DNA of 20,800 nt from positions 29,698 through 50,497 of the forward strand of contig CAZFBL010000003.1 of assembly GCA_964517275.1 (NCBI GenBank), given 5' to 3'. A model generated the notes under the pieces. That model was not told where the DNA came from, made no database searches, and was given only the letters and a program-made list of their open reading frames with translations. A program made the translations under genes and the position numbers. The stretch comes from an uncultured Candidatus Saccharibacteria bacterium. Lineage in GTDB: Bacteria; Patescibacteriota; Minisyncoccia; Portnoybacterales; UBA2143. Positions 1,861 to 19,422 of this stretch are shown in pieces; the stretch's first letter is position 1; every line of letters begins with the position of its first letter.

Positions 1861-2940
1861 ATGAAATCATTTTTATTGGGAGTTTATATCGGTTTAGGTA
1901 TAGTTGGCTTAGCCGCAGCTGTTTTTGGCCTAATTATCTTAATTCACTTCCTGGCCAAAAATAATATTTTCATCACTTCTGTCCAGGAAGGAATGGCTAA
2001 AGCAATCCAGAAATTCGGTAGATTCCATCGGGCAGTAATGACCTATGAAGGATACGGGTTCGACACCGAATGGACAGTCCGCCCTAAAGAAAAAACAGAT
2101 GAAGACGGCTATATCCTCGGTGAAAACGGAAAGATTGCTAAGAGCGAACAAGAAACATCTCTTAAACTTCGGTTAGAACCATGGTTTCGATTTGGCGGTC
2201 TCCGCTGGGTAGGCATTCCTCTAATTCATTCTGTCTATAGGTATAAATTCAGATGGGCTTCGTTTGAACAAGGAGAGGAGCAAGGCACCCTTGTTCAGAA
2301 AATTATCTCTCACGAGGAAAAAATAGATTATGTTCTGGTTCAAGACGACATCTATTACAGTTTTGTTACGGAAGCAGAAACCGAAGGGATGGTTCCAGTA
2401 AATGTGAATTTACTCTTGACCATTAGGATAGTTAATCCTTATAAAGCTCTTTTCAGAGTTCAGAACTGGCTGGAAGCAACTCAAAACTTGCTTAAACCTG
2501 CTCTGAGAAAGTACATCTCTGGAAAATCATTTGAAGATTTAATCAGGAAAAAAGAAGAAACAGAAAGAGAAGCAGATGAGTTTCTAAAAGAATCTGAGGT
2601 AGATAAATACCTGGAACGAGATTATGGTGTTCGTCTGAAGAAAGTTGGTATGGTGCTGATTAACCCAGCTGGCGAACGAGGTCAAACTTTTGTCGCGGCG
2701 GCAACTAAAGAATGGGAAGCCGAAAAGGAGAAAAGCCGAATCAAGATAAGTGCCGAAGCCGAAGTAGAAAGAATAAGAAGGATTTACGATCAAATCAAGA
2801 GTTATGGCGAAGAAGGACTTTTCATCCGAGCCACCGAGGCCATTGAGGAAACTGGCAAGGGGCCAAGCAATTTGGTTCTTTTTCCTCTCGGCTCGGCTAA
2901 ATCTATGATTGAAGGATGGCTGGGAAGAAAAAATCAGTAA
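1861..2940 (+). CDS. SPFH/band-7 (stomatin/prohibitin-like) membrane protein with an insertion
   Basis: N-terminal TM helix. VPVNVNLLLTIRIVNPYKALFRVQNWLEATQNLLKPALRKYISGKSFEDLI matches the SPFH core (compare stomatin VPVRVNAVVYFRVVDPVKAV...). C-terminal charged coiled coil (EKEKSRIKISAEAEVERIRRI). Strong RBS. About 100 extra residues are inserted after the first SPFH strand. Confidence 0.7.
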   Translation: MKSFLLGVYIGLGIVGLAAAVFGLIILIHFLAKNNIFITSVQEGMAKAIQKFGRFHRAVMTYEGYGFDTEWTVRPKEKTDEDGYILGENGKIAKSEQETSLKLRLEPWFRFGGLRWVGIPLIHSVYRYKFRWASFEQGEEQGTLVQKIISHEEKIDYVLVQDDIYYSFVTEAETEGMVPVNVNLLLTIRIVNPYKALFRVQNWLEATQNLLKPALRKYISGKSFEDLIRKKEETEREADEFLKESEVDKYLERDYGVRLKKVGMVLINPAGERGQTFVAAATKEWEAEKEKSRIKISAEAEVERIRRIYDQIKSYGEEGLFIRATEAIEETGKGPSNLVLFPLGSAKSMIEGWLGRKNQ

Positions 2941-7174: not shown

Positions 7175-7537
7175 TTATGGTGTAATACCCAAAATATCGA
7201 ATAAGGCCTGTAATAATCCCCAAGAGGCTAGAATAATAGCCAGACCGATTAAAGACCATTGTATAGTCTGACGAGCCTTCTTAACTTTTTCTTCGCTCCC
7301 TCCGGAAACCATATATTGAATACCACCAATAACAACCATTAAAACAGCTACCGTTGAAGCAATGCCAGCCACCCAATCAGCGATCCGGAGGAAAAGCTCA
7401 GTAAAAGTATTGGCATTAAGAGGATTATTTATCACCATATTGGCAGCTTTAATACTAATCAGAGGCAAAATGATCACTAAAAAGCTAAAAGTCAAAACTG
7501 ATAATAAAGAAAACTTTTTGAGGATGTTTCTAAACAT
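7175..7537 (-). CDS. Small secreted two-helix membrane protein, TrbC/VirB2-pilin-like (paralog 2 of 3)
   Basis: Signal peptide (...SIKA|AN), then WVAGIASTVAVLMVVIGG...GGSEEKVKKARQTIQW..., clearly homologous to the neighbouring two genes. Starts 9 nt after the paralog-3 stop. No SD is visible. Confidence 0.5.
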   Translation of the reverse strand: MFRNILKKFSLLSVLTFSFLVIILPLISIKAANMVINNPLNANTFTELFLRIADWVAGIASTVAVLMVVIGGIQYMVSGGSEEKVKKARQTIQWSLIGLAIILASWGLLQALFDILGITP

Positions 7538-7546
7538 AAATTTTTA

Positions 7547-7957
7547 TTACGGACAAGGAGGAAATACGTTCCAAGCGCCGCTGAAAGCTCCGGTGGCAAT
7601 AGATTTTAATAAACTGTCGATTATTAACCAACTGGTAAAAATGATGACTAGGCCGATAACCGCATTGGTAAAAATATTTTTGGCCAAACTGACTCTTTCC
7701 TCGCTGCCGCCGGCCACAAGAAAGATAACCCCGGCCGCCACAAATAGGAGAACAGCCGCCGGAATAGCCAGATTAAAACTGATAAAATTGATAATATTAC
7801 TGGCCAAGTGCCAAAGATGACAAAGACTACAGTCCGGCTGACCTGTCCGGCCACAAGGGACTATCGGTTCGGTAACAAAACCGGCATAGGCCAAATTAGC
7901 GGCCAGTAAGCCAATTAAGATAAAAGAACCGATTAGAATTTTCTGAAAACTATCCAT
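7547..7957 (-). CDS. Small secreted two-helix membrane protein, TrbC/VirB2-pilin-like, with a Cys-rich insert (paralog 3 of 3)
   Basis: Signal peptide, then the Cys-containing segment PCGRTGQPDCSLCHLWHL, then the shared core AAGVIFLVAGGSEERVSLAKNIF...GLVIIFTSW, ending ...FPPCP. Confidence 0.5.
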   Translation of the reverse strand: MDSFQKILIGSFILIGLLAANLAYAGFVTEPIVPCGRTGQPDCSLCHLWHLASNIINFISFNLAIPAAVLLFVAAGVIFLVAGGSEERVSLAKNIFTNAVIGLVIIFTSWLIIDSLLKSIATGAFSGAWNVFPPCP

Positions 7958-13362: not shown

Positions 13363-13487
13363 AAACGATAGTTGGCTGTTCCCGAGATTGTCTCAGTTAA
13401 GCGAAGAATTTTATCATTAGAGAGATATAATTCCTGGCCTTTCAGGGGACAGCCGAATTGATTTAATTCTATCACAAAATTTTTCTA

Positions 13488-13516
13488 TTGCCAAGTCAAT
13501 AATTTTAGGTTATACT
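13488..13516 (+). promoter_or_regulatory. Sigma70-like promoter for the S1-ftsH operon
   Basis: TTGCCA at 13488-13493, 17-bp spacer, TATACT at 13511-13516. Confidence 0.5.
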
Positions 13517-13648: not shown

Positions 13649-14239
13649 ATGACTACAGAAAAAACAAATTTAATGAAAGATTTAATCAACAAAGACAAAC
13701 AAGGCCCCATTCTTCCTCAGGTAGGCGATTTAATTGAGGGAAAAATTATTAAAATAGGCAAAAGTGCCATTATCCTTGACCTTGGTCCGCTAGGCACCGG
13801 AATTATCTACGGCGGCGAGATAAAGGAAGATAAAGGAGCGCTCAAAGAATTGTCCATCGGTCAAACCATATCGGCCTTGGTCTTAGAGTTGGAAAATGAA
13901 GACGGCTACGTTGAGCTTTCTTTAAGAGAAGCGAATTTGGAAAAGACTTGGCTGGAACTGAAAGAAAAAAGAAAAGCTGGTCAGTCGATTACGGTCCGGG
14001 TAGCTGATGCTAATCGCGGCGGCCTGGTCATCAGATTGTCCAATCTGATTGGCTTTTTGCCTGTTTCTCAACTATCGGCCAAAAACTATCCCAAAGTCGA
14101 AGGCGGCGACAAAGAAAAAATTTTGGAGCAGCTAAATAAATTCGTCGGCCAGGAAATGGAAGTTAAAATTCTTGACCTTGACCAAAAAACAAGCAAGTTG
14201 ATTGTCTCTGAAAAGATGCTTCAAGAGAAAAGTAACTAG
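13649..14239 (+). CDS. S1 RNA-binding domain protein (two S1 repeats; short ribosomal protein S1-like)
   Basis: Two S1 folds: GDLIEGKIIKIGKSAIILDLGPLGTGIIYGGEI and GQSITVRVADANRGGLVIRLSNLIGFLPVSQLS. The stop is 2 nt before the ftsH ATG. Confidence 0.75.
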   Translation: MTTEKTNLMKDLINKDKQGPILPQVGDLIEGKIIKIGKSAIILDLGPLGTGIIYGGEIKEDKGALKELSIGQTISALVLELENEDGYVELSLREANLEKTWLELKEKRKAGQSITVRVADANRGGLVIRLSNLIGFLPVSQLSAKNYPKVEGGDKEKILEQLNKFVGQEMEVKILDLDQKTSKLIVSEKMLQEKSN

Positions 14240-14241
14240 CT

Positions 14242-16065
14242 ATGAAATATCTTCTTAAAAACCTAATCATCGTCTTTCTGGTTTTCCTGACTATTGCCGG
14301 CTTCTTTGCTCTGGTTAGTCAGCCCGGCCAGAAGCCGGAAGAAATTACCCTGAATCAGCTAGTCGAACAGATTAACCAGGAAAAAGTGGCTAAAATTATT
14401 ATCAAAGGGAACCAATTAGAAATTGAATTAAAAGACGGCAATCAAGAGAAAGCGAATAAAGAGGAGGAAGCTTCACTAACCGAATCTCTGAAAAACTACG
14501 GCCTTGCTCCCGAAAAGCTAAAATCAGTTAATCTAGAAGTAAAAAGCGAAAGCGGTCTGGTGTTCTGGCTAGGAACAATTCTCCCTTTTCTCTTACCTTT
14601 ACTGATTATTGGCTTCTTCTTTTGGTTTATCTACCGAGGCGCCCAGCGCGGCCAAATGCAGGCTTTTACCTTTGGTCGCTCGCGGGCCCGTTTATTCAGC
14701 CCTAAAGACAAAAAAGAACAAGTCACTTTCAAAGACGTAGCTGGCTTGAAAGAAGCCAAGGAAGAATTGCAAGAAATCGTTGATTTTTTAAAAAATCCCA
14801 AGAAATTTGTTAATTTGGGAGCGAAAATCCCTAAAGGAGTCCTCTTGGTCGGCCAACCGGGCACCGGTAAAACCCTCTTGGCCCGAGCAATCGCTTCTGA
14901 GGCCAGTGTTCCCTTTTTTAGCGTCTCCGGTTCTGAGTTCGTTGAGATGTTTGTCGGAGTCGGTAGCTCACGCGTCCGCGACTTGTTCCAAACAGCCAAG
15001 AAACAGGCCCCGGCTTTAGTCTTTATTGACGAATTAGATGCCATCGGCCGGCAACGGGGAGCCGGCCTCGGCGGCGGCCACGACGAAAGAGAACAAACCT
15101 TAAATCAGATTCTAGTCGAGATGGACGGCTTTGACCCTAATGCCGGAATCATTCTTCTGGCGGCGACTAACCGGCCGGACGTTTTAGACCCGGCCCTTCT
15201 GCGACCGGGCCGCTTTGACCGCCGAATTGTCTTATATTTACCTGACCTGAAGGACCGAAAAGAAATCCTGAAAATCCACGCTCGAAACAAGCCCTTAGAT
15301 AATAAGGTTAACTTGAAAGAAATCTCTGAACGAACGCCTGGTTTTTCGGGAGCTGATTTGGCTAATTTAGTTAATGAAGCGGCTATCTTAACCGCCCGAC
15401 GAAATAAGAAGAAAATTAGCCAAGATGAACTGCGGGAATGTATTGAAAAAGTTCTTTTGGGACCAGAGAGAAAAAGCCGTCTTCTTTCCAAAAAAGAGAA
15501 AGAAATTGCCGCTTATCACGAAGCCGGCCATGCCTTAGTCGCCTCTTCCTTAAATCATACCGACCCGGTTCAAAAAGTTTCCATTATCGCTCGCGGCCCG
15601 GCGGCCGGCTACACCCTTAAACTACCAACTAAAGAAAGGCAACTCCACAGCCGTTCCGAATTTGTCGATGAACTAGCTGTTTTGATGGGCGGCTATGTAG
15701 CCGAGGAACTAGTTTTCAATGAACTAACCACTGGCGCCTCCAGCGACTTACAAAAAGCAAGCGAATTAGCCCGGGATTTGGTCACTAAATACGGAATGAG
15801 CGAAAAAATGGGACCGCGCACCTTTGGCGGTCGGGAAGAAATGGTTTTCTTAGGCCGGGAAATTGCCACTGAAAAAGAATATTCGGAAGAAATAGCCGCT
15901 CAGATTGACAAAGAGGTAGGCAAATTTATCGACAATGCTTACCGAACAGCTAAAAAAATATTAAGCGAGGAAAGAAAACGTTTGGATTTGATTGCCAAGC
16001 GCCTAATCAAAAAGGAAACGATTGAGCGAAAAGAATTCCAAAGCTTAATGAAAAAGAAAATTTAA
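14242..16065 (+). CDS. ftsH: ATP-dependent zinc metalloprotease FtsH
   Basis: Two N-terminal TM helices, Walker [15 protein letters not shown] region, zinc-binding HEAGHAL. Confidence 0.95.
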
Positions 16066-16104
16066 ACAGCTCATTGACAAAAAATTTCAGCCAAGGAGGG
16101 CCGT

Positions 16105-16248
16105 ATGGATATTTTCAATATAACCTCGGGAGACTTGGGTGTGATTGTGGCGCTTGTTCTAGCCATAGTCTATCTGCTAACCAGGATAAAGCGAATAAAA
16201 AACAAAAAACCATTACCGCAAAAGGAGGGACAAAATGGATTTTACTGA
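16105..16248 (+). CDS. sORF A: 47-aa single-TM peptide (MDIFNITSGDLGVIVALVLAIVYLLTRIKRIKNKKPLPQKEGQNGFY)
   Basis: Perfect SD AAGGAGGG at 16093-16100, 4 nt before the ATG. Not in the supplied ORF track because it is under 60 aa. The track's 16074..16262 ORF is a different frame. Confidence 0.5.
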   Translation: MDIFNITSGDLGVIVALVLAIVYLLTRIKRIKNKKPLPQKEGQNGFY

Positions 16249-16378
16249 TTGTTGGATTATAATACTGCTCTTTGTTATTCTGCTTCTACCTCAAATTCTT
16301 AATTGGCTTTCTGTCCATAAAAAGCTCCCTCAAAGACTAACCGATTCTCTTGTCCGATGGGTAAAAAGAGATCTTTAA
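16235..16378 (+). CDS. sORF B: 47-aa single-TM peptide (MDFTDCWIIILLFVILLLPQILNWLSVHKKLPQRLTDSLVRWVKRDL), overlapping sORF A by 14 nt
   Basis: A second perfect SD AAGGAGGG 4 nt before ATG 16235. Its stop is immediately followed by a terminator. Confidence 0.5.
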   Translation: MDFTDCWIIILLFVILLLPQILNWLSVHKKLPQRLTDSLVRWVKRDL

Positions 16379-16379
16379 T

Positions 16380-16408
16380 AAGAGAAATGCATCGGTCATT
16401 CTCTTTTT
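16380..16408 (+). terminator. Rho-independent terminator
   Basis: Stem aagagaa/ttctctt with a 12-nt loop, followed by a T-run and then an A-run. Confidence 0.7.
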
Positions 16409-16485
16409 AAAAAACTGACCAGGCAACGAGATAAATCAAAAGACTAACCAACCATAATTTGAAAAAGACAAGAATGGAGGACCTA

Positions 16486-17142
16486 ATGATTCAGAAAGAA
16501 ACTATTAAGGGAGTGATTTTGGATTTCGACGGCGTGGTTATCGATTCGACCAACATAAGCATTCAAGGACAATTAGACTTTGCCAAGCAAAAAGGTTATC
16601 CTTGTGTTAGCTACGAGCAGCTAAGACAGCTTTGGGGGTTGCCTTGGACGAATGTAATCAGTGCCATTTATTCTAAGTCAGATGCAGAAAGATTTATGGA
16701 AGAATATTATCCTTGGAAATTGAAGCAAGGAATTCAATATCCCCCTTTCCCAGAAACTCTTCGTTCTCTTACTAGACTAAGAAAAGCTGGTTTGTTGCTC
16801 TCTCTACTGACTAGTCGCGACAAAAGAACCCTTTTTTTGCATATGACTAATGCCTCCGTACCAACTGAAATTTTCTTTTTTATCCAGGCTCCCAACGGCC
16901 ATCAAGACTCCAGGCCAAAAACATTTAGGCCAACTTTCAAGCAATTCAAGCGAGCCGGCTTAAAAAAAGAAAACCTTATCTACGTAGGCGACACTATTTT
17001 CGACGCCCAGGCCGCTCGAGCCGCTCAAATTGAGTTTATCGGAGTTTTGACCGGAGCGACAACCAAAGAGGAGTTCCTAAGAATCGGCGCTAAATATATC
17101 ATAAATTCAATCGCCGAATTACCGAGTCTTATTGGTTTATAA
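16486..17142 (+). CDS. HAD-superfamily hydrolase (phosphatase-like)
   Basis: Motif I VILDFDGVVIDST, motif IV GDTIFD. GGAGG sits 5 nt before ATG 16486. The longest ORF starts at 16459 in the same frame. Confidence 0.75.
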   Translation: MIQKETIKGVILDFDGVVIDSTNISIQGQLDFAKQKGYPCVSYEQLRQLWGLPWTNVISAIYSKSDAERFMEEYYPWKLKQGIQYPPFPETLRSLTRLRKAGLLLSLLTSRDKRTLFLHMTNASVPTEIFFFIQAPNGHQDSRPKTFRPTFKQFKRAGLKKENLIYVGDTIFDAQAARAAQIEFIGVLTGATTKEEFLRIGAKYIINSIAELPSLIGL

Positions 17143-17209: not shown

Positions 17210-17256
17210 AAAAAGATTGACCGAATGGCAAAGATTGACTAAAATAGAATTGTTTT

Positions 17257-17329
17257 GGGCGTGTAGCTCAGGGGTTAGAGCATTGCTCTTATAAAGCAAG
17301 GGTCGATGGTTCGAATCCATCCACGCCCA
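17257..17329 (+). tRNA. tRNA-Ile, anticodon TAT (UAU)
   Basis: Perfect cloverleaf: GGGCGTG/CACGCCC acceptor, GCTC/GAGC D-stem, TTGCT/AGCAA anticodon stem, loop CTTATAA, GATGG-TTCGAAT-CCATC T-arm. The body resembles bacterial tRNA-Ile. The 3' end is followed by CCC, not CCA. Confidence 0.85.
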
Positions 17330-17333
17330 CCCC

Positions 17334-17453: not shown

Positions 17454-18827
17454 ATGGATCAACGATCTAATCAACAGACTAATTCCCTGAAGCCGCAAAC
17501 CACTCCCAAACCAGAAATACTCAAAGAGTACAAATCGCCTAGGTGGGCTATTGTTTGCATTGCAGCATTTTCTGTTATCGTAGTTGGCTTAGTTAGCTAT
17601 GGCGCTTATCGATATTTTGCTCCTCGACCTGAGTCGGCTGAATTACCAACGGCTGGTGAAGAAGAACTTGCTAATGAATTCGCTAACTGGCAAACCTATC
17701 GCAATGAGGAGTATGGGTTTGAAATAAAACATCCAGAAGATTGGGAAGCATGGGAAAAAACGAGTAAGATTCATTTAGTGGCTCTTGGTTTTGGTTTAAA
17801 AAATCATAAAATAGAGTCTACTGGTTTAAAGAAAGCTATTTTCAATATCTATGTTTATTCAAAAAAAGGATGGGAAGAAACCCAGTCTTGGGGAGAAGAT
17901 TATAAGGCAGAGAAATTAGGCGAGAACAATAAAGACTACATCCTTGCATATCGTTTAAATGATTTAAAGTATTCAGAAGATGTTCTAAAAATTATTTCTA
18001 CTTTTAATGCAATAAATAACTGGCAGGTTTATAGGAACGAAGCATATGATTATGAAATAGAACTGCCAGCTCATTGGGTAGCGTATTCAGAATATGATGG
18101 CTCAGTGATAGAGAAAGCGGACTCTCCGGAGAATTTTCCAGATAATCCATTGATTTTAACTGGGACACCACGCGGAACTGGAGCAATGCCGATTTTAAAC
18201 TTTCAAATCGAATTTATTAGTAATATGACGGTTAGTAAATATAAGAATTCTTTTTTAGGCGATGTTCAGCAATCAACTGAATTACAAGTTAAGAGTGGAC
18301 AAACAGGCATAAAATTAGCCAAGAATGAAAAGGTCTTTTTTCTAATAGAGATGAATAATAATCTTCTTAAAGTTTATTCTTCTGATAGCGAATATATATA
18401 TAACGATAGAATTTTTACTTCCATTAAATTTATTGAACCAGAATCCACTAGTAGTTATAAAACCTACCAAGGAGATTTTTTTGAAGTAAATTATTCTTCT
18501 GCTATCTGGACAGAAGAAAATTGTAAATATCAATTATGTTCCGTAGAGTTTGCTGATGACCAATGTGTAATTAGTGCCGGGCTCTGGCGGAATAAACCCT
18601 GGAATCCAGTTAATATAACAACCTGGGAAATTGGAGAATATTCACCGCAAGTAAAAGAATGGGCTAAAAGTAGTGACGATATTAATGAAATTGAGGTAAT
18701 TTTTGATATAGAGGATGTCGGAACCCGTTCATTCGATTTATTTATCTTCTCACCTAATTTATACGAAAAATGTCAGGATAATTTCAAAGAATTACTTTCC
18801 ACTGTTAGATTTATTGAACAAGAATAG
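17454..18827 (+). CDS. Hypothetical membrane-anchored protein with an internally duplicated W-x2-Y-x-N-E-x-Y-x-[FY]-E-I motif
   Basis: N-terminal polar region, then one TM helix (WAIVCIAAFSVIVVGLVSYGAY). NWQTYRNEEYGFEIKHPEDWEAW is repeated as NWQVYRNEAYDYEIELPAHWVAY. No SD. Markedly lower GC than neighbouring genes. Confidence 0.5.
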   Translation: MDQRSNQQTNSLKPQTTPKPEILKEYKSPRWAIVCIAAFSVIVVGLVSYGAYRYFAPRPESAELPTAGEEELANEFANWQTYRNEEYGFEIKHPEDWEAWEKTSKIHLVALGFGLKNHKIESTGLKKAIFNIYVYSKKGWEETQSWGEDYKAEKLGENNKDYILAYRLNDLKYSEDVLKIISTFNAINNWQVYRNEAYDYEIELPAHWVAYSEYDGSVIEKADSPENFPDNPLILTGTPRGTGAMPILNFQIEFISNMTVSKYKNSFLGDVQQSTELQVKSGQTGIKLAKNEKVFFLIEMNNNLLKVYSSDSEYIYNDRIFTSIKFIEPESTSSYKTYQGDFFEVNYSSAIWTEENCKYQLCSVEFADDQCVISAGLWRNKPWNPVNITTWEIGEYSPQVKEWAKSSDDINEIEVIFDIEDVGTRSFDLFIFSPNLYEKCQDNFKELLSTVRFIEQE

Positions 18828-19203
18828 TTCGGATAAAGTCTCGTAGGGACCACCAAATTGGATTTCGCAAATTTTTTGATGTGGATAAGTTGTTTCGCTC
18901 GCCTCGTCCTCGCTTGGCTCGGGCTCGGCTTCGGAGTCGTTTGGACGGTAGCTAAAACTTCTTGCCAAAATTTTGTTCAAAAACGGTTCGCGCATTTTCA
19001 ATTATAGCCCACCAAATTAAACCAAAAGGATTAATTATTAGCTTAATCATTTTAACAGCCGCTATTGTTATCGGCATTTTCTAATACCCCTTTATTTTCC
19101 TAATTCAAGACAGCCAATCCAGCAATATTCTGTTCGTAGGCCGGGTGAATAATCCCAGCTAATAGTTTTTTAACTTTAAAAAAACCTAAAAAGGAGGGGC
19201 ATC

Positions 19204-19422
19204 ATGGTCAAAAGCAGTGGCGGTGGCGGCAGAGAGACGCCGACAAAAGCGGAAAAGTTTATAATGAGATTCCGTGAAACCGCAAAGAAAAAATCGGGAG
19301 ATCTTTTGAATGAATTATTAGAAGGACGAATAACAGTGTTGGAAGCTCTAGACGGGATGAACAATTTTTTCCAAGGTGCATGCGACACTATTCTAAATAT
19401 CAAAGAGGAGGAAGAAAAATAG
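19204..19422 (+). CDS. Hypothetical small protein (72 aa), Gly-rich N-terminus and acidic C-terminus
   Basis: Very strong SD AAAGGAGGGG 5 nt before the ATG. A strong terminator follows. Confidence 0.5.
   Translation: MVKSSGGGGRETPTKAEKFIMRFRETAKKKSGDLLNELLEGRITVLEALDGMNNFFQGACDTILNIKEEEEK

What the first reader, a model, noticed from the sequence alone, without database searches (positions are those of the whole stretch)
16091..16408. Two overlapping ~47-codon single-TM sORFs with perfect Shine-Dalgarno sites immediately downstream of ftsH
Both ORFs sit 4 nt after an exact AAGGAGGG and begin MD[IF]. They overlap by 14 nt in different frames, which implies translational coupling. Each encodes one hydrophobic helix plus a basic tail, and a terminator closes the pair. 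They appear to be co-transcribed with ftsH, as no intervening promoter or terminator is visible. Small hydrophobic peptides next to FtsH are known to be modulators or substrates in other bacteria. Paired membrane peptides also resemble type-I toxin or two-peptide bacteriocin-like modules. They are absent from the supplied ORF track only because of the length cutoff.
Basis: seen in the sequence. Interest (0 to 1): 0.6.

Follow-up and report, generated by a model that had tools for sequence, protein, structure and literature searches.

The report
Two small membrane proteins after ftsH
Two back-to-back 47-codon genes for tiny single-helix membrane proteins really do sit at the end of the ftsH operon of this uncultured Patescibacteria (CPR) bacterium, but they occur in only four closely related lineages, evolve fast, match no known family, and nothing links them to FtsH except their position.

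Summary
sORF1 (16105-16248) and sORF2 (16235-16378) each encode 47 aa, overlap by 14 nt, and follow an exact AAGGAGGG (spacer 4 nt and 5 nt). Each has one hydrophobic helix. An AT-rich hairpin plus U-run (16380-16408) closes the pair, and no promoter or terminator consensus lies between ftsH and sORF1.

Both ORFs recur, in the same order between the ftsH stop and tRNA-Ile(UAU), in three other species-level lineages (L005, L006, L084). They are absent from about 74 other Patescibacteria ftsH loci. No other homolog turned up among 5.8 billion proteins, an exhaustive HMMER search for sORF2, viral contigs or phage genomes.

sORF2 (TM helix plus amphipathic helix) is under significant purifying selection (pN/pS 0.41-0.47, p 1e-4 to 2e-3). 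sORF1 keeps its start, SD, TM character and in-frame indels, but shows no measurable constraint and looks disrupted in L084.

Verdict: a genuine orphan pair of small bitopic membrane proteins, probably co-transcribed with ftsH. An FtsH-modulator or substrate role is plausible only from operon membership (about 0.3). The type-I toxin and two-peptide bacteriocin readings fail their defining features. Modest interest.

The parts
13649..14239 (+). S1 RNA-binding-domain gene, first gene of the inferred operon. Its stop lies 2 nt before the ftsH ATG.
   Evidence: Pfam S1 E = 1.4e-17. The nearest upstream plus-strand promoter-like sites are at 13388-13417 and 13488-13516.
14242..16065 (+). ftsH (607 aa): FtsH_ext, AAA, AAA_lid_3 and Peptidase_M41 domains.
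   Evidence: Pfam hits. It is 77-85% identical to the FtsH of the closest Patescibacteria MAGs.
16093..16100 (+). Shine-Dalgarno site of sORF1 (AAGGAGGG), 4 nt before the ATG.
   Evidence: Orthologs carry AGGGGG, AAGGGGG or AAGGAGGG at the same place. The fold shows no sequestering structure (z = 0.69).
16105..16248 (+). sORF1, 47 aa: short acidic N-terminus, one TM helix (about residues 11-26), K/R cluster, then a disordered charged tail. Predicted topology is N-out/C-in. Its last codons encode the SD of sORF2.
   Evidence: Kyte-Doolittle 2.52. AF2 helix 8-33. Orthologs P0006 and P0007 are 39-42% identical. Indels within the ORF are 3, 3 and 9 nt, all in frame. pN/pS is 0.64-0.73, not significant.
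16222..16229 (+). Shine-Dalgarno site of sORF2 (AAGGAGGG), 5 nt before the ATG and inside the sORF1 coding sequence.
   Evidence: Orthologs have GGAGGT or GAGGT 8 nt before their ATG.
16235..16378 (+). sORF2, 47 aa: TM helix with an invariant proline (ILLxP), a break at KKLP, then a basic amphipathic C-terminal helix (RWxKR). Predicted topology is N-out/C-in.
   Evidence: Kyte-Doolittle 2.87. AF2 helices 3-28 and 33-46, mean pLDDT 76.5. Hydrophobic moment 0.63-0.82. Orthologs P0002-P0004 are 48-52% identical. pN/pS is 0.41-0.47 with p from 1e-4 to 2e-3. Neutral simulation gives p about 0.005-0.01.
16380..16408 (+). Intrinsic-terminator-like AT-rich hairpin plus U-run that closes the operon.
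   Evidence: -9.3 kcal/mol, z = -2.9. Orthologs have a 14-bp stem plus U8-9 at the same position with a different sequence. It is the only well-supported element in the alignment fold.
17217..17245 (+). Context: the TTGACC-17-TAAAAT promoter of the tRNA-Ile(UAU)/Val cluster. In the orthologs it directly follows the sORF2 terminator; in the window the HAD gene lies in between.

Best explanation
The two ORFs are genuine small protein genes restricted to one clade, appended to the 3' end of an S1-ftsH transcription unit in a Patescibacteria (CPR) genome.

Shown:
- Both have their own strong SD and ATG.
- The stop of sORF1 falls at or next to the start of sORF2 in all four lineages.
- A hairpin plus U-run follows sORF2.
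- Frame, length (44-47 aa) and hydrophobic helix are retained at 39-52% amino-acid identity.
- sORF2 is under purifying selection.

Inferred:
- Both insert N-out/C-in (acidic N-terminus, K/R cluster after the helix) and leave tails of about 20 residues in the cytoplasm.
- sORF2 (TM helix, proline, then an interfacial amphipathic helix) is the functional core.
- sORF1 is a fast-evolving partner, or mainly an upstream ORF whose translation delivers ribosomes to the sORF2 start.

Most likely mode of action (inference from operon membership only): the pair is made together with FtsH, the only membrane protein in the operon, and associates with it in the membrane as a dispensable accessory, modulator or decoy substrate.

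My probabilities: sORF2 is a real protein, about 0.85. sORF1 is a real functional protein, about 0.55. The pair has an FtsH-related function, about 0.3.
For: - ORFs, SDs and overlap.
- No plus-strand promoter or terminator consensus between 13516 and 17217.
- Terminator hairpin conserved in position.
- Orthologous pairs in L005 (same as L085/L086 and L087-L096), L006 (same as L097-L102) and L084, always ordered ftsH, sORF1, sORF2, terminator, tRNA promoter, tRNA-Ile.
- sORF2 selection: pN/pS 0.41-0.47 with Fisher p from 1e-4 to 2e-3 in frame, and stops in the other frames. In a neutral-substitution simulation only 27-49 of 5000 runs reach the observed BLOSUM score, and only about 5% keep the ORF open.
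- Indels inside the ORFs are multiples of 3, whereas those in the ftsH-sORF1 spacer are 2 nt.
- Predicted helices. Amphipathic C-terminus of sORF2.
- Gene callers in JGI, NCBI and Logan already call both ORFs.
- Background for the FtsH idea: SpoVM binds and inhibits FtsH (PMC10730256). MgtR promotes and MgtS inhibits FtsH-dependent degradation (PMC12648545). FtsH typically needs an unstructured cytosolic tail of about 10-20 aa to start degradation (PMC13039401).
Against: - sORF1 shows no significant protein-level constraint (pN/pS 0.64-0.73, p 0.12-0.23; simulation p 0.15-0.58).
- In L084 the sORF1 start region carries an 11-nt gap plus a 1-nt insertion, which puts the only well-spaced ATG out of frame.
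- Some of the invariant sORF1 C-terminal residues (Q39, E41) are explained by the embedded SD of sORF2.
- Only four lineages exist, and within-lineage contigs are identical, so the population data carry no information.
- The pair is absent from the close relative L004 and from L007 and L008, where tRNA-Ile follows ftsH after 16-45 nt. It is therefore dispensable.
- The ftsH-tRNA-rluD block of the window also took up other insertions: the HAD gene, a 457-aa gene and a 72-aa ORF. Placement here may be accidental.
- There are no expression or interaction data.
- No homology to SpoVM, MgtR or any other family.
Confidence: 0.5

Rival explanations
1. Passenger genes. The pair are real small membrane proteins whose function is unrelated to FtsH. 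A roughly 390-bp insertion (two sORFs, a terminator and a new tRNA promoter) landed between ftsH and tRNA-Ile in an ancestor and is simply read through from the ftsH promoter.
For: - In L004, L007 and L008, tRNA-Ile follows the ftsH stop after only 16-45 nt, so the whole segment is an insertion.
- The same block in the window has further lineage-specific insertions: the HAD gene, plus a 457-aa gene and a 72-aa ORF between tRNA-Val and tRNA-Ala.
- 77 Patescibacteria ftsH loci were examined, and only this clade has small TM ORFs there.
Against: Small membrane proteins are often encoded in the operon of the large membrane protein they bind, for example KdpF and MgtR (PMC12648545). The pair has stayed attached to ftsH in all four lineages, although that may be simple inheritance.
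Confidence: 0.3
2. Only sORF2 is a functional protein. sORF1 is an upstream or leader ORF whose product is irrelevant or decaying. It is kept open because its translation, SD region and stop position serve sORF2 expression.
For: - sORF1 has no significant constraint.
- The sORF1 N-terminus is remodelled and frameshifted in L084 while sORF2 is intact there.
- The sORF1 C-terminus carries the sORF2 SD.
- The sORF1 stop is always within a few nt of the position of the orthologs' sORF2 start.
Against: - TM hydrophobicity, the positive-inside K/R cluster, the N-terminal M-[DN]-I-x-N-x-T..D motif and an A16xxx[A/S]20 pattern are retained at 39-42% identity.
- Indels are in frame.
- sORF2 has its own good SD, so it does not obviously need a leader ORF.
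- The L084 frameshift lies in an A4T4 run of a single Logan contig and could be an assembly error.
Confidence: 0.3
3. A toxin-like membrane-active module: a type-I toxin, a holin or antiholin-like pair, or a phenol-soluble-modulin-like peptide, with FtsH or the partner peptide keeping it in check.
For: - Small hydrophobic peptides.
- The C-terminal amphipathic helix of the sORF2 orthologs gives a sub-threshold match to Delta_lysin (PF05372, E 0.08-0.13, 12 bits against a cut-off of 25; NCBIfam PSM E 0.16) with a similar hydrophobic moment.
Against: - No conserved antisense promoter or terminator. The only minus-strand matches are chance-level (found 4, expected 5.6).
- The SDs are strong and unstructured (z 0.4-0.7), the opposite of the tightly repressed translation of type-I toxins.
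- The pair is constitutively co-transcribed with an essential housekeeping gene.
- No PHROG, PADLOC, phage or viral-contig relatives.
- No lysin or other phage genes nearby.
- The window's own sORF2 does not hit Delta_lysin at all.
Confidence: 0.07
4. A two-peptide (class IIb) bacteriocin-like pair.
For: Two adjacent small hydrophobic peptides of equal length.
Against: - No double-glycine leader and no GxxxG motifs in either peptide (sequences).
- Both have the positive-inside topology of resident membrane proteins.
- No ABC transporter with a C39 peptidase, immunity gene or regulator in the 20.8-kb window.
- No family hits.
Confidence: 0.02
5. Neither ORF is functional. The segment is a transcribed spacer whose ORFs persist by chance and shared ancestry.
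For: Very narrow distribution, fast evolution, and no constraint detectable between the closest pair L006 and L084 (dN/dS 0.43-0.46 on few sites). sORF1 statistics are non-significant.
Against: - sORF2 frame-specific selection and simulations.
- Both starts, SDs, lengths and TM character are kept at about 36% nucleotide divergence.
- Indels are in frame.
- No RNA family and no convincing conserved structure other than the terminator.
Confidence: 0.08

Closest known systems
SpoVM of Bacillus subtilis (26-aa amphipathic peptide that binds and inhibits FtsH in vitro; PMC10730256). From my own knowledge, phage lambda CIII is likewise an amphipathic-helix inhibitor and substrate of FtsH.
   Same: A very small peptide with a basic amphipathic helix. 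The sORF2 C-terminus has a hydrophobic moment of 0.63-0.82 against 0.58 for SpoVM. It has a possible relationship to FtsH.
   Different: - No sequence similarity and no Pfam or NCBIfam hit.
- sORF2 has a full TM helix in front of the amphipathic helix.
- spoVM is not encoded in the ftsH operon.
- No interaction data exist here.
MgtR (30 aa, Salmonella) and MgtS (31 aa, E. coli): single-TM peptides that promote or inhibit FtsH-dependent degradation of Mg2+ transporters (PMC12648545).
   Same: Single-pass hydrophobic peptides under 50 aa, encoded at the end of an operon together with the large membrane protein they act on (mgtCBR).
   Different: - They bind the substrate (MgtC, MgtA) rather than being linked to ftsH.
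- No homology.
- The present case is a pair of peptides, and there is no transporter gene in the operon.
Type-I toxin-antitoxin toxins (Hok, Fst, TisB, BsrG and similar).
   Same: Size and a single hydrophobic helix with a charged tail.
   Different: No antisense RNA signals, strong accessible SDs, and co-transcription with a housekeeping gene.
Pfam PF12669, FeoB-associated Cys-rich membrane protein (about 44 aa).
   Same: sORF1 orthologs give sub-threshold matches (E 0.0027-0.26; 12-18 bits against a cut-off of 27) over the TM plus basic stretch, profile positions 1-27 of 44.
   Different: The defining Cys-rich C-terminal part is not matched, and sORF1 has no cysteine at all. No feoB is nearby. 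The resemblance is generic TM-plus-K/R similarity.
Delta-lysin / phenol-soluble modulins (PF05372).
   Same: The C-terminal helix of the sORF2 orthologs (GKLPQWLINSINRWTKR) resembles the delta-lysin C-terminus, with E about 0.1.
   Different: The match is below threshold and absent for the window's own copy. Delta-lysin is a 26-aa secreted peptide without a TM anchor.

Membership tests
Real protein-coding gene (sORF2) | Frame-specific purifying selection, with the ORF kept open across diverged orthologs. | tested here: met
   pN/pS is 0.41-0.47 with p from 1e-4 to 2e-3 in frame 0, and there are 3-5 stop codons in the other frames. In the neutral simulation 27-49 of 5000 runs reach the observed BLOSUM score and about 5% keep the ORF open.
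Real protein-coding gene (sORF1) | Frame-specific purifying selection, with the ORF kept open across diverged orthologs. | tested here: inconclusive
   The ORF, SD, TM character and in-frame indels are kept in 3 of 4 lineages. However, pN/pS is 0.64-0.73 (p 0.12-0.23), the simulation is not significant, and there is an apparent frameshift in L084.
FtsH-associated small regulators (SpoVM, MgtR/MgtS, lambda CIII) | Sequence membership in one of these families. | tested here: not met
   No Pfam, NCBIfam, PHROG or PADLOC family at threshold. No relatives beyond the four lineages.
FtsH-associated small regulators (SpoVM, MgtR/MgtS, lambda CIII) | Physical interaction with FtsH, or an effect on FtsH-dependent proteolysis. 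| not testable with these tools
   Only operon membership is available.
FtsH-associated small regulators (SpoVM, MgtR/MgtS, lambda CIII) | Linkage to ftsH that recurs independently in different genomic contexts. | tested here: not met
   Linkage is seen only inside one collinear clade. 77 loci were scanned and only the window, L005 and L006 are positive.
Type-I toxin-antitoxin | An overlapping or adjacent antisense RNA gene with its own promoter and terminator. | tested here: not met
   The only minus-strand hits are one 9/12 promoter-like site (16145-16117) and a 5-bp hairpin (16103-16088), which would give an RNA of about 25 nt. Hit counts are at or below shuffle expectation. No Rfam hit.
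Type-I toxin-antitoxin | Toxin translation kept repressed (SD sequestered in mRNA structure). | tested here: not met
   The SD regions fold no better than shuffles (z 0.69 and 0.43). Both SDs are perfect AAGGAGGG.
Two-peptide (class IIb) bacteriocin | A double-glycine leader and GxxxG helix-helix motifs in both peptides. | tested here: not met
   Neither feature is present in the sequences.
Two-peptide (class IIb) bacteriocin | Adjacent immunity gene and an ABC transporter with a C39 peptidase. | tested here: not met
   The neighbours are S1, ftsH, a HAD hydrolase and tRNAs. No transporter occurs anywhere in the window except a solute-binding protein 7 kb away.
FeoB-associated Cys-rich membrane protein (PF12669) | Score above the gathering threshold and a Cys-rich C-terminal motif. 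| tested here: not met
   12-18 bits against a cut-off of 27. Only profile positions 1-27 of 44 are matched, and sORF1 contains no Cys.
Delta-lysin / PSM (PF05372) | Score above the gathering threshold. | tested here: not met
   About 12 bits against a cut-off of 25 for P0003 and P0004. No hit for the window's sORF2.
Holin | Phage or lysis-cassette context, or membership of a holin family. | tested here: not met
   No PHROG hit at E < 0.01. No relatives in viral contigs or phage genomes. No endolysin nearby.

The most novel reading that the evidence does not exclude
The pair is a clade-specific heterodimeric accessory of FtsH in an ultra-small CPR bacterium. The two co-translated bitopic peptides would dock on the FtsH transmembrane region and present about 20-residue cytosolic tails and an amphipathic helix to the ATPase. 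In doing so they would tune which membrane proteins are degraded, acting as an adaptor or as a competitive decoy. This would be a recently acquired regulator of an otherwise universal protease.
Probability: 0.15. Interest if true: 0.55.

Novelty: new member of a known kind. Interest (0 to 1): 0.3.

Why it matters
If the peptides do act on FtsH, they would be the first FtsH-linked small membrane proteins described in Patescibacteria. They would also be an example of a universal quality-control protease acquiring a lineage-specific regulator. Even without that link, they are a clean case of a young orphan pair of small membrane-protein genes whose gain can be placed between two fixed landmarks, the ftsH stop and tRNA-Ile. 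That is useful for studying how new microprotein genes arise and decay. As it stands, this is one more uncharacterised orphan small-protein family with four known members, so its general importance is limited.

Tried and rejected
- **Distant homologs.** Three word-index searches of 5.8 billion proteins used sORF1 alone, a sORF2 profile and a sORF1 profile. They returned only the four lineages. An exhaustive HMMER profile search of 1.84 billion representatives with sORF2 added only two tandem-repeat proteins (P0008, P0009), whose scores come from summed repeats. I rejected these as spurious.
- **Metagenome scan with the sORF2 profile**. It found only two more contigs of the L005 type.
- **Viral-contig scans and phage tblastn**. 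Nothing found.
- **Population polymorphism.** I compared 10 L005-type and 6 L006-type contigs from different samples to obtain within-species pN/pS. All were identical across the sORFs, so this carried no information.
- **Paralogs or remnants.** tblastn of the peptides against the window and all 102 loci (749 kb) gave only noise at E > 0.01, and nothing in the L004 spacer.
- **One frameshifted gene.** I rejected this. The two-ORF arrangement, each ORF with its own SD and ATG, is present in all lineages, and no fused homolog exists.
- **A structured RNA.** Rfam at E <= 1 gave nothing. The alignment fold supports only the terminator hairpin.
- **'Hypervariable sORFs' between L006 and L084.** The sORFs differ by 10-19% while the flanks and the ftsH 3' end differ by 2.5-3.2%. 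I rejected this as a sign of diversifying selection. The neighbouring rluD-like gene has pS 0.44 for the same pair, so the ftsH end is unusually similar rather than the sORFs unusually divergent.
- **Placement of L004.** The FtsH neighbour-joining tree puts L004 inside the carrier clade, which implies a loss. Identities of the MBL-fold and rluD-like proteins put it outside, which implies no loss. This is left unresolved.
Full report
**1. What is in the sequence**

The window carries ftsH at 14242-16065 on the plus strand (607 aa; FtsH_ext, AAA, AAA_lid_3 and Peptidase_M41 domains). An S1-domain gene (13649-14239) ends 2 nt before the ftsH start.

Thirty-nine nucleotides after the ftsH stop comes sORF1 (16105-16248, 47 aa, MDIFNITSGDLGVIVALVLAIVYLLTRIKRIKNKKPLPQKEGQNGFY). 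Overlapping it by 14 nt in another frame is sORF2 (16235-16378, 47 aa, MDFTDCWIIILLFVILLLPQILNWLSVHKKLPQRLTDSLVRWVKRDL).

Exact AAGGAGGG motifs lie at 16093-16100 and 16222-16229.

The motif is not background:
- There are 4 copies in 20.8 kb against 0.96 expected, and no shuffle out of 100 reaches 4.
- Three of the four copies lie 4-5 nt before the ATG of a small ORF. The third is a 72-aa ORF at 19204.
- Most large genes of the window have no strong SD.

No plus-strand promoter-like or terminator-like consensus lies between 13516 and 17217.

The consensus scan misses the terminator after sORF2 because its stem is AT-rich. However, 16380-16405 plus the U-run folds at -9.3 kcal/mol (z = -2.9).

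**2. Where the window comes from**

The closest FtsH proteins in one-genome-per-species GTDB contigs are from uncultured Patescibacteria MAGs. L004, L005 and L006 are 84-85% identical, L007 is 79%, and L008, labelled Candidatus Portnoybacteria, is 77%.

The block gyrA, orf128, MBL-fold hydrolase, S1, ftsH is collinear in all of them.

**3. Are the frames conserved?**

Yes, but only in a very small clade. Directly after the ftsH stop, L005 and L006 carry a 44/47-aa ORF and a 47-aa ORF that align with sORF1 (39-42% identity) and sORF2 (50-52%). A fourth variant, L084, came from the protein search.

The order is the same in all of them:
- ftsH stop
- SD, then sORF1
- stop TAA, one nt, then the ATG of sORF2, whose SD (GGAGGT or GAGGT) lies inside the end of sORF1
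- a 14-bp hairpin plus U8-9 (-11 kcal/mol)
- a TTGACC-17-TAAAAT-type promoter
- tRNA-Ile(UAU), tRNA-Val, tRNA-Ala

In the window the sORF2 ATG has moved 9 nt upstream. The orthologs' ATG corresponds to ACT in the window, and the sORF1 stop TGA lies at the position of the orthologs' sORF2 start. This shift creates the 14-nt overlap. The same tRNA promoter is at 17217-17245, but a HAD-hydrolase gene has been inserted before it.

The pair is missing elsewhere:
- In L004, L007 and L008, tRNA-Ile follows ftsH after only 16-45 nt.
- Among 77 Patescibacteria ftsH loci with enough downstream sequence, only the window, L005 and L006 have a small TM ORF with an SD. One further hit, in L049, overlaps a tRNA.

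Searches for more relatives found nothing:
- Three word-index searches of 5.8 billion proteins.
- An exhaustive HMMER profile search of 1.84 billion representatives with sORF2. It added only two spurious tandem-repeat proteins.
- A metagenome-contig scan, which returned two more L005-type contigs.
- Viral contigs and phage genomes.

The family therefore has four known species-level members.

**4. Coding evidence**

sORF2, compared between the window and each ortholog:
- pS is 0.60-0.68 against pN 0.28, giving pN/pS of 0.41-0.47.
- Fisher p is 1e-4 to 2e-3 in the annotated frame. The other two frames contain 3-5 stop codons.
- I re-dealt the observed substitutions at random over the window sequence. 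Only 27-49 of 5000 runs reached the observed BLOSUM score, about 5% kept the ORF open, and 1-5% kept the hydrophobic peak.
- sORF2 is therefore a protein under moderate purifying selection. It is weaker than for ftsH (dN/dS 0.05-0.08) or the neighbouring rluD-like gene (pN/pS 0.16-0.26).

sORF1 evidence is weaker:
- pN/pS is 0.64-0.73 (p 0.12-0.23), and the simulations are not significant.
- In its favour are the conserved ATG and SD, the M-[DN]-I-x-N-x-T..D N-terminus, the retained TM hydrophobicity and K/R cluster, and an A16xxx[A/S]20 pattern.
- Indels inside the ORF are 3, 3 and 9 nt, while those in the upstream spacer are 2 nt.
- Against it, the invariant C-terminal Q39 and E41 coincide with the embedded SD of sORF2.
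- Also against it, L084 has an 11-nt gap that removes the ancestral ATG and a 1-nt insertion in an A4T4 run. This puts the only well-spaced ATG out of frame. That is either decay or an assembly error in a single contig.

Contigs of the same lineage from many samples are identical across the sORFs, so they add nothing. No Rfam family matches. Apart from the terminator, no convincing conserved RNA structure explains the region.

**5. What the proteins look like**

sORF1:
- A short acidic N-terminus.
- One helix (AF2 residues 8-33).
- A K/R cluster.
- A disordered charged tail (pLDDT < 50 from residue 38).

sORF2:
- A TM helix (AF2 residues 3-28) with an invariant ILLxP.
- A break at KKLP.
- A basic amphipathic helix at 33-46 (mean pLDDT 76.5) with hydrophobic moment 0.63-0.82.

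By the positive-inside rule (inference) both are N-out/C-in with about 20 cytosolic residues.

**6. Known families**

Nothing reaches threshold in Pfam, NCBIfam, PHROGs or PADLOC. There are two sub-threshold resemblances:
- sORF1 orthologs match the TM-plus-basic part of PF12669, FeoB-associated Cys-rich protein (12-18 bits against a cut-off of 27). The Cys-rich part is absent, and sORF1 has no cysteine.
- sORF2 orthologs match delta-lysin (about 12 bits against a cut-off of 25). The window's own copy does not match.

Neither is membership.

**7. Mechanism**

Shown:
- The two genes lie in an apparently uninterrupted S1-ftsH-sORF1-sORF2 unit closed by a conserved terminator.
- Strong, unstructured SDs precede both (z 0.4-0.7).
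- The stop/start juxtaposition is conserved.
- sORF2 is under constraint.

Inferred:
- Co-transcription and coupled, roughly equimolar synthesis.
- Membrane insertion N-out/C-in.
- Action as a pair.

The most likely target is FtsH, because it is the only membrane protein in the operon and small membrane proteins are commonly encoded with their partner. Precedents exist:
- SpoVM binds and inhibits FtsH (PMC10730256).
- MgtR promotes and MgtS inhibits FtsH-dependent degradation (PMC12648545).
- FtsH initiates on cytosolic tails of about 10-20 residues (PMC13039401). Both peptides would offer such tails.

I put this at about 0.3, for these reasons:
- Linkage to ftsH is seen only within one collinear clade.
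- The segment is an insertion of about 390 bp relative to L004, L007 and L008.
- The same tRNA block of the window has taken up other insertions: the HAD gene, and a 457-aa gene plus a 72-aa ORF between tRNA-Val and tRNA-Ala.
- The pair is clearly dispensable in close relatives.

Whether L004 lost the pair or never had it is unresolved. The FtsH tree puts L004 inside the carrier clade, while MBL and rluD-like identities put it outside.

**8. Rivals**

- Passenger genes unrelated to FtsH (about 0.3).
- Only sORF2 functional, with sORF1 acting as a leader ORF (about 0.3; compatible with either of the above).
- Non-functional spacer ORFs (about 0.08).
- A toxin-like module (about 0.07). There are no antisense signals, the SDs are exposed, the operon is housekeeping, and there are no phage or defence hits.
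- A two-peptide bacteriocin (about 0.02). There is no GG leader, no GxxxG, and no transporter or immunity gene.

**9. Verdict**

This is a real but ordinary kind of feature: a new, tiny orphan family of small bitopic membrane proteins at the end of the ftsH operon of a few Patescibacteria. Its functional suggestions are either untested (FtsH modulator) or fail their defining features (type-I toxin, bacteriocin). Interest is modest at 0.3.

Noticed in passing
window 19191-19422 (+): A 72-aa soluble ORF (19204-19422, MVKSSGGGGRETPTKAEKF...) sits 5 nt after another exact AAGGAGGG. Three of the four AAGGAGGG copies in the window precede small ORFs, while most large genes lack a strong SD. It has no Pfam hit. 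It lies in a window-specific insertion between tRNA-Val and tRNA-Ala.
   Followed up: partly
window 17256-17332; L004-L008 and L084 directly after ftsH: ARAGORN calls the tRNA right downstream of ftsH as tRNA-Ile with anticodon UAU (tat), and it is conserved in all relatives examined. From my own knowledge, most bacteria read AUA with a lysidine-modified CAU tRNA made by TilS, whose gene classically sits upstream of ftsH. A UAU tRNA-Ile fixed next to ftsH is therefore worth a look.
   Followed up: no
window 16459-17142 and 17454-19422: The ftsH-tRNA-rluD block is an insertion hotspot in the window's lineage. A HAD-hydrolase gene (likely start ATG 16487 with a GGAGGA SD) lies before tRNA-Ile. 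A 457-aa gene (weak PsbP_2 hit) plus the 72-aa ORF split tRNA-Val from tRNA-Ala. In relatives Ile-Val-Ala are contiguous, except in L007, where Ile and Val are about 750 nt apart and no tRNA-Ala was found.
   Followed up: partly
window 1861-2940 (+): An SPFH/Band-7 family gene (359 aa) with a strong AAAGGAGGA SD, followed by an overlapping 443-aa membrane protein. SPFH proteins such as HflK/C are the classical membrane partners of FtsH in E. coli (own knowledge). This gene is a more conventional FtsH-partner candidate in this genome than the sORFs.
   Followed up: no
L025 5843-6844, L057 6011-7009; also L053, L054, L056, L061, L065, L078, L083: In many other Patescibacteria a conserved multi-TM protein of about 333 aa (N-terminus ...YRPILK.A....R.LW.FGLFA...G) starts right after ftsH. 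It has no Pfam family. This ftsH-linked membrane protein is far more widespread than the sORF pair.
   Followed up: partly
L084 605-660: In the L084 lineage the start region of sORF1 has an 11-nt gap that removes the ancestral ATG. A 1-nt insertion in an A4T4 run puts the remaining SD-served ATG (620) out of frame with the TM segment. sORF2 is intact. This is a single Logan contig, so it may be a real pseudogene or an assembly error.
   Followed up: partly
L006 vs L084, ftsH 3' end: The last 560 nt of ftsH differ by only 2.7%, all synonymous (pS 0.12), between L006 and L084. The rluD-like gene about 0.7 kb downstream has pS 0.44 for the same pair. Either synonymous sites of ftsH are unusually constrained, or the ftsH end was recently exchanged between the lineages.
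   Followed up: partly
window 7175-7957 (-): Two adjacent small genes (120 and 136 aa) match the T4SS_pilin family (PF18895; E 7e-14 and 4e-9). They sit next to a solute-binding protein gene.
   Followed up: no
JGI 3300031369 / SRR8556428: The window's organism (contigs L001-L003) and the L005-type relative (L090, L096) occur in the same samples, so two carriers of the sORF pair co-exist in one community.
   Followed up: no
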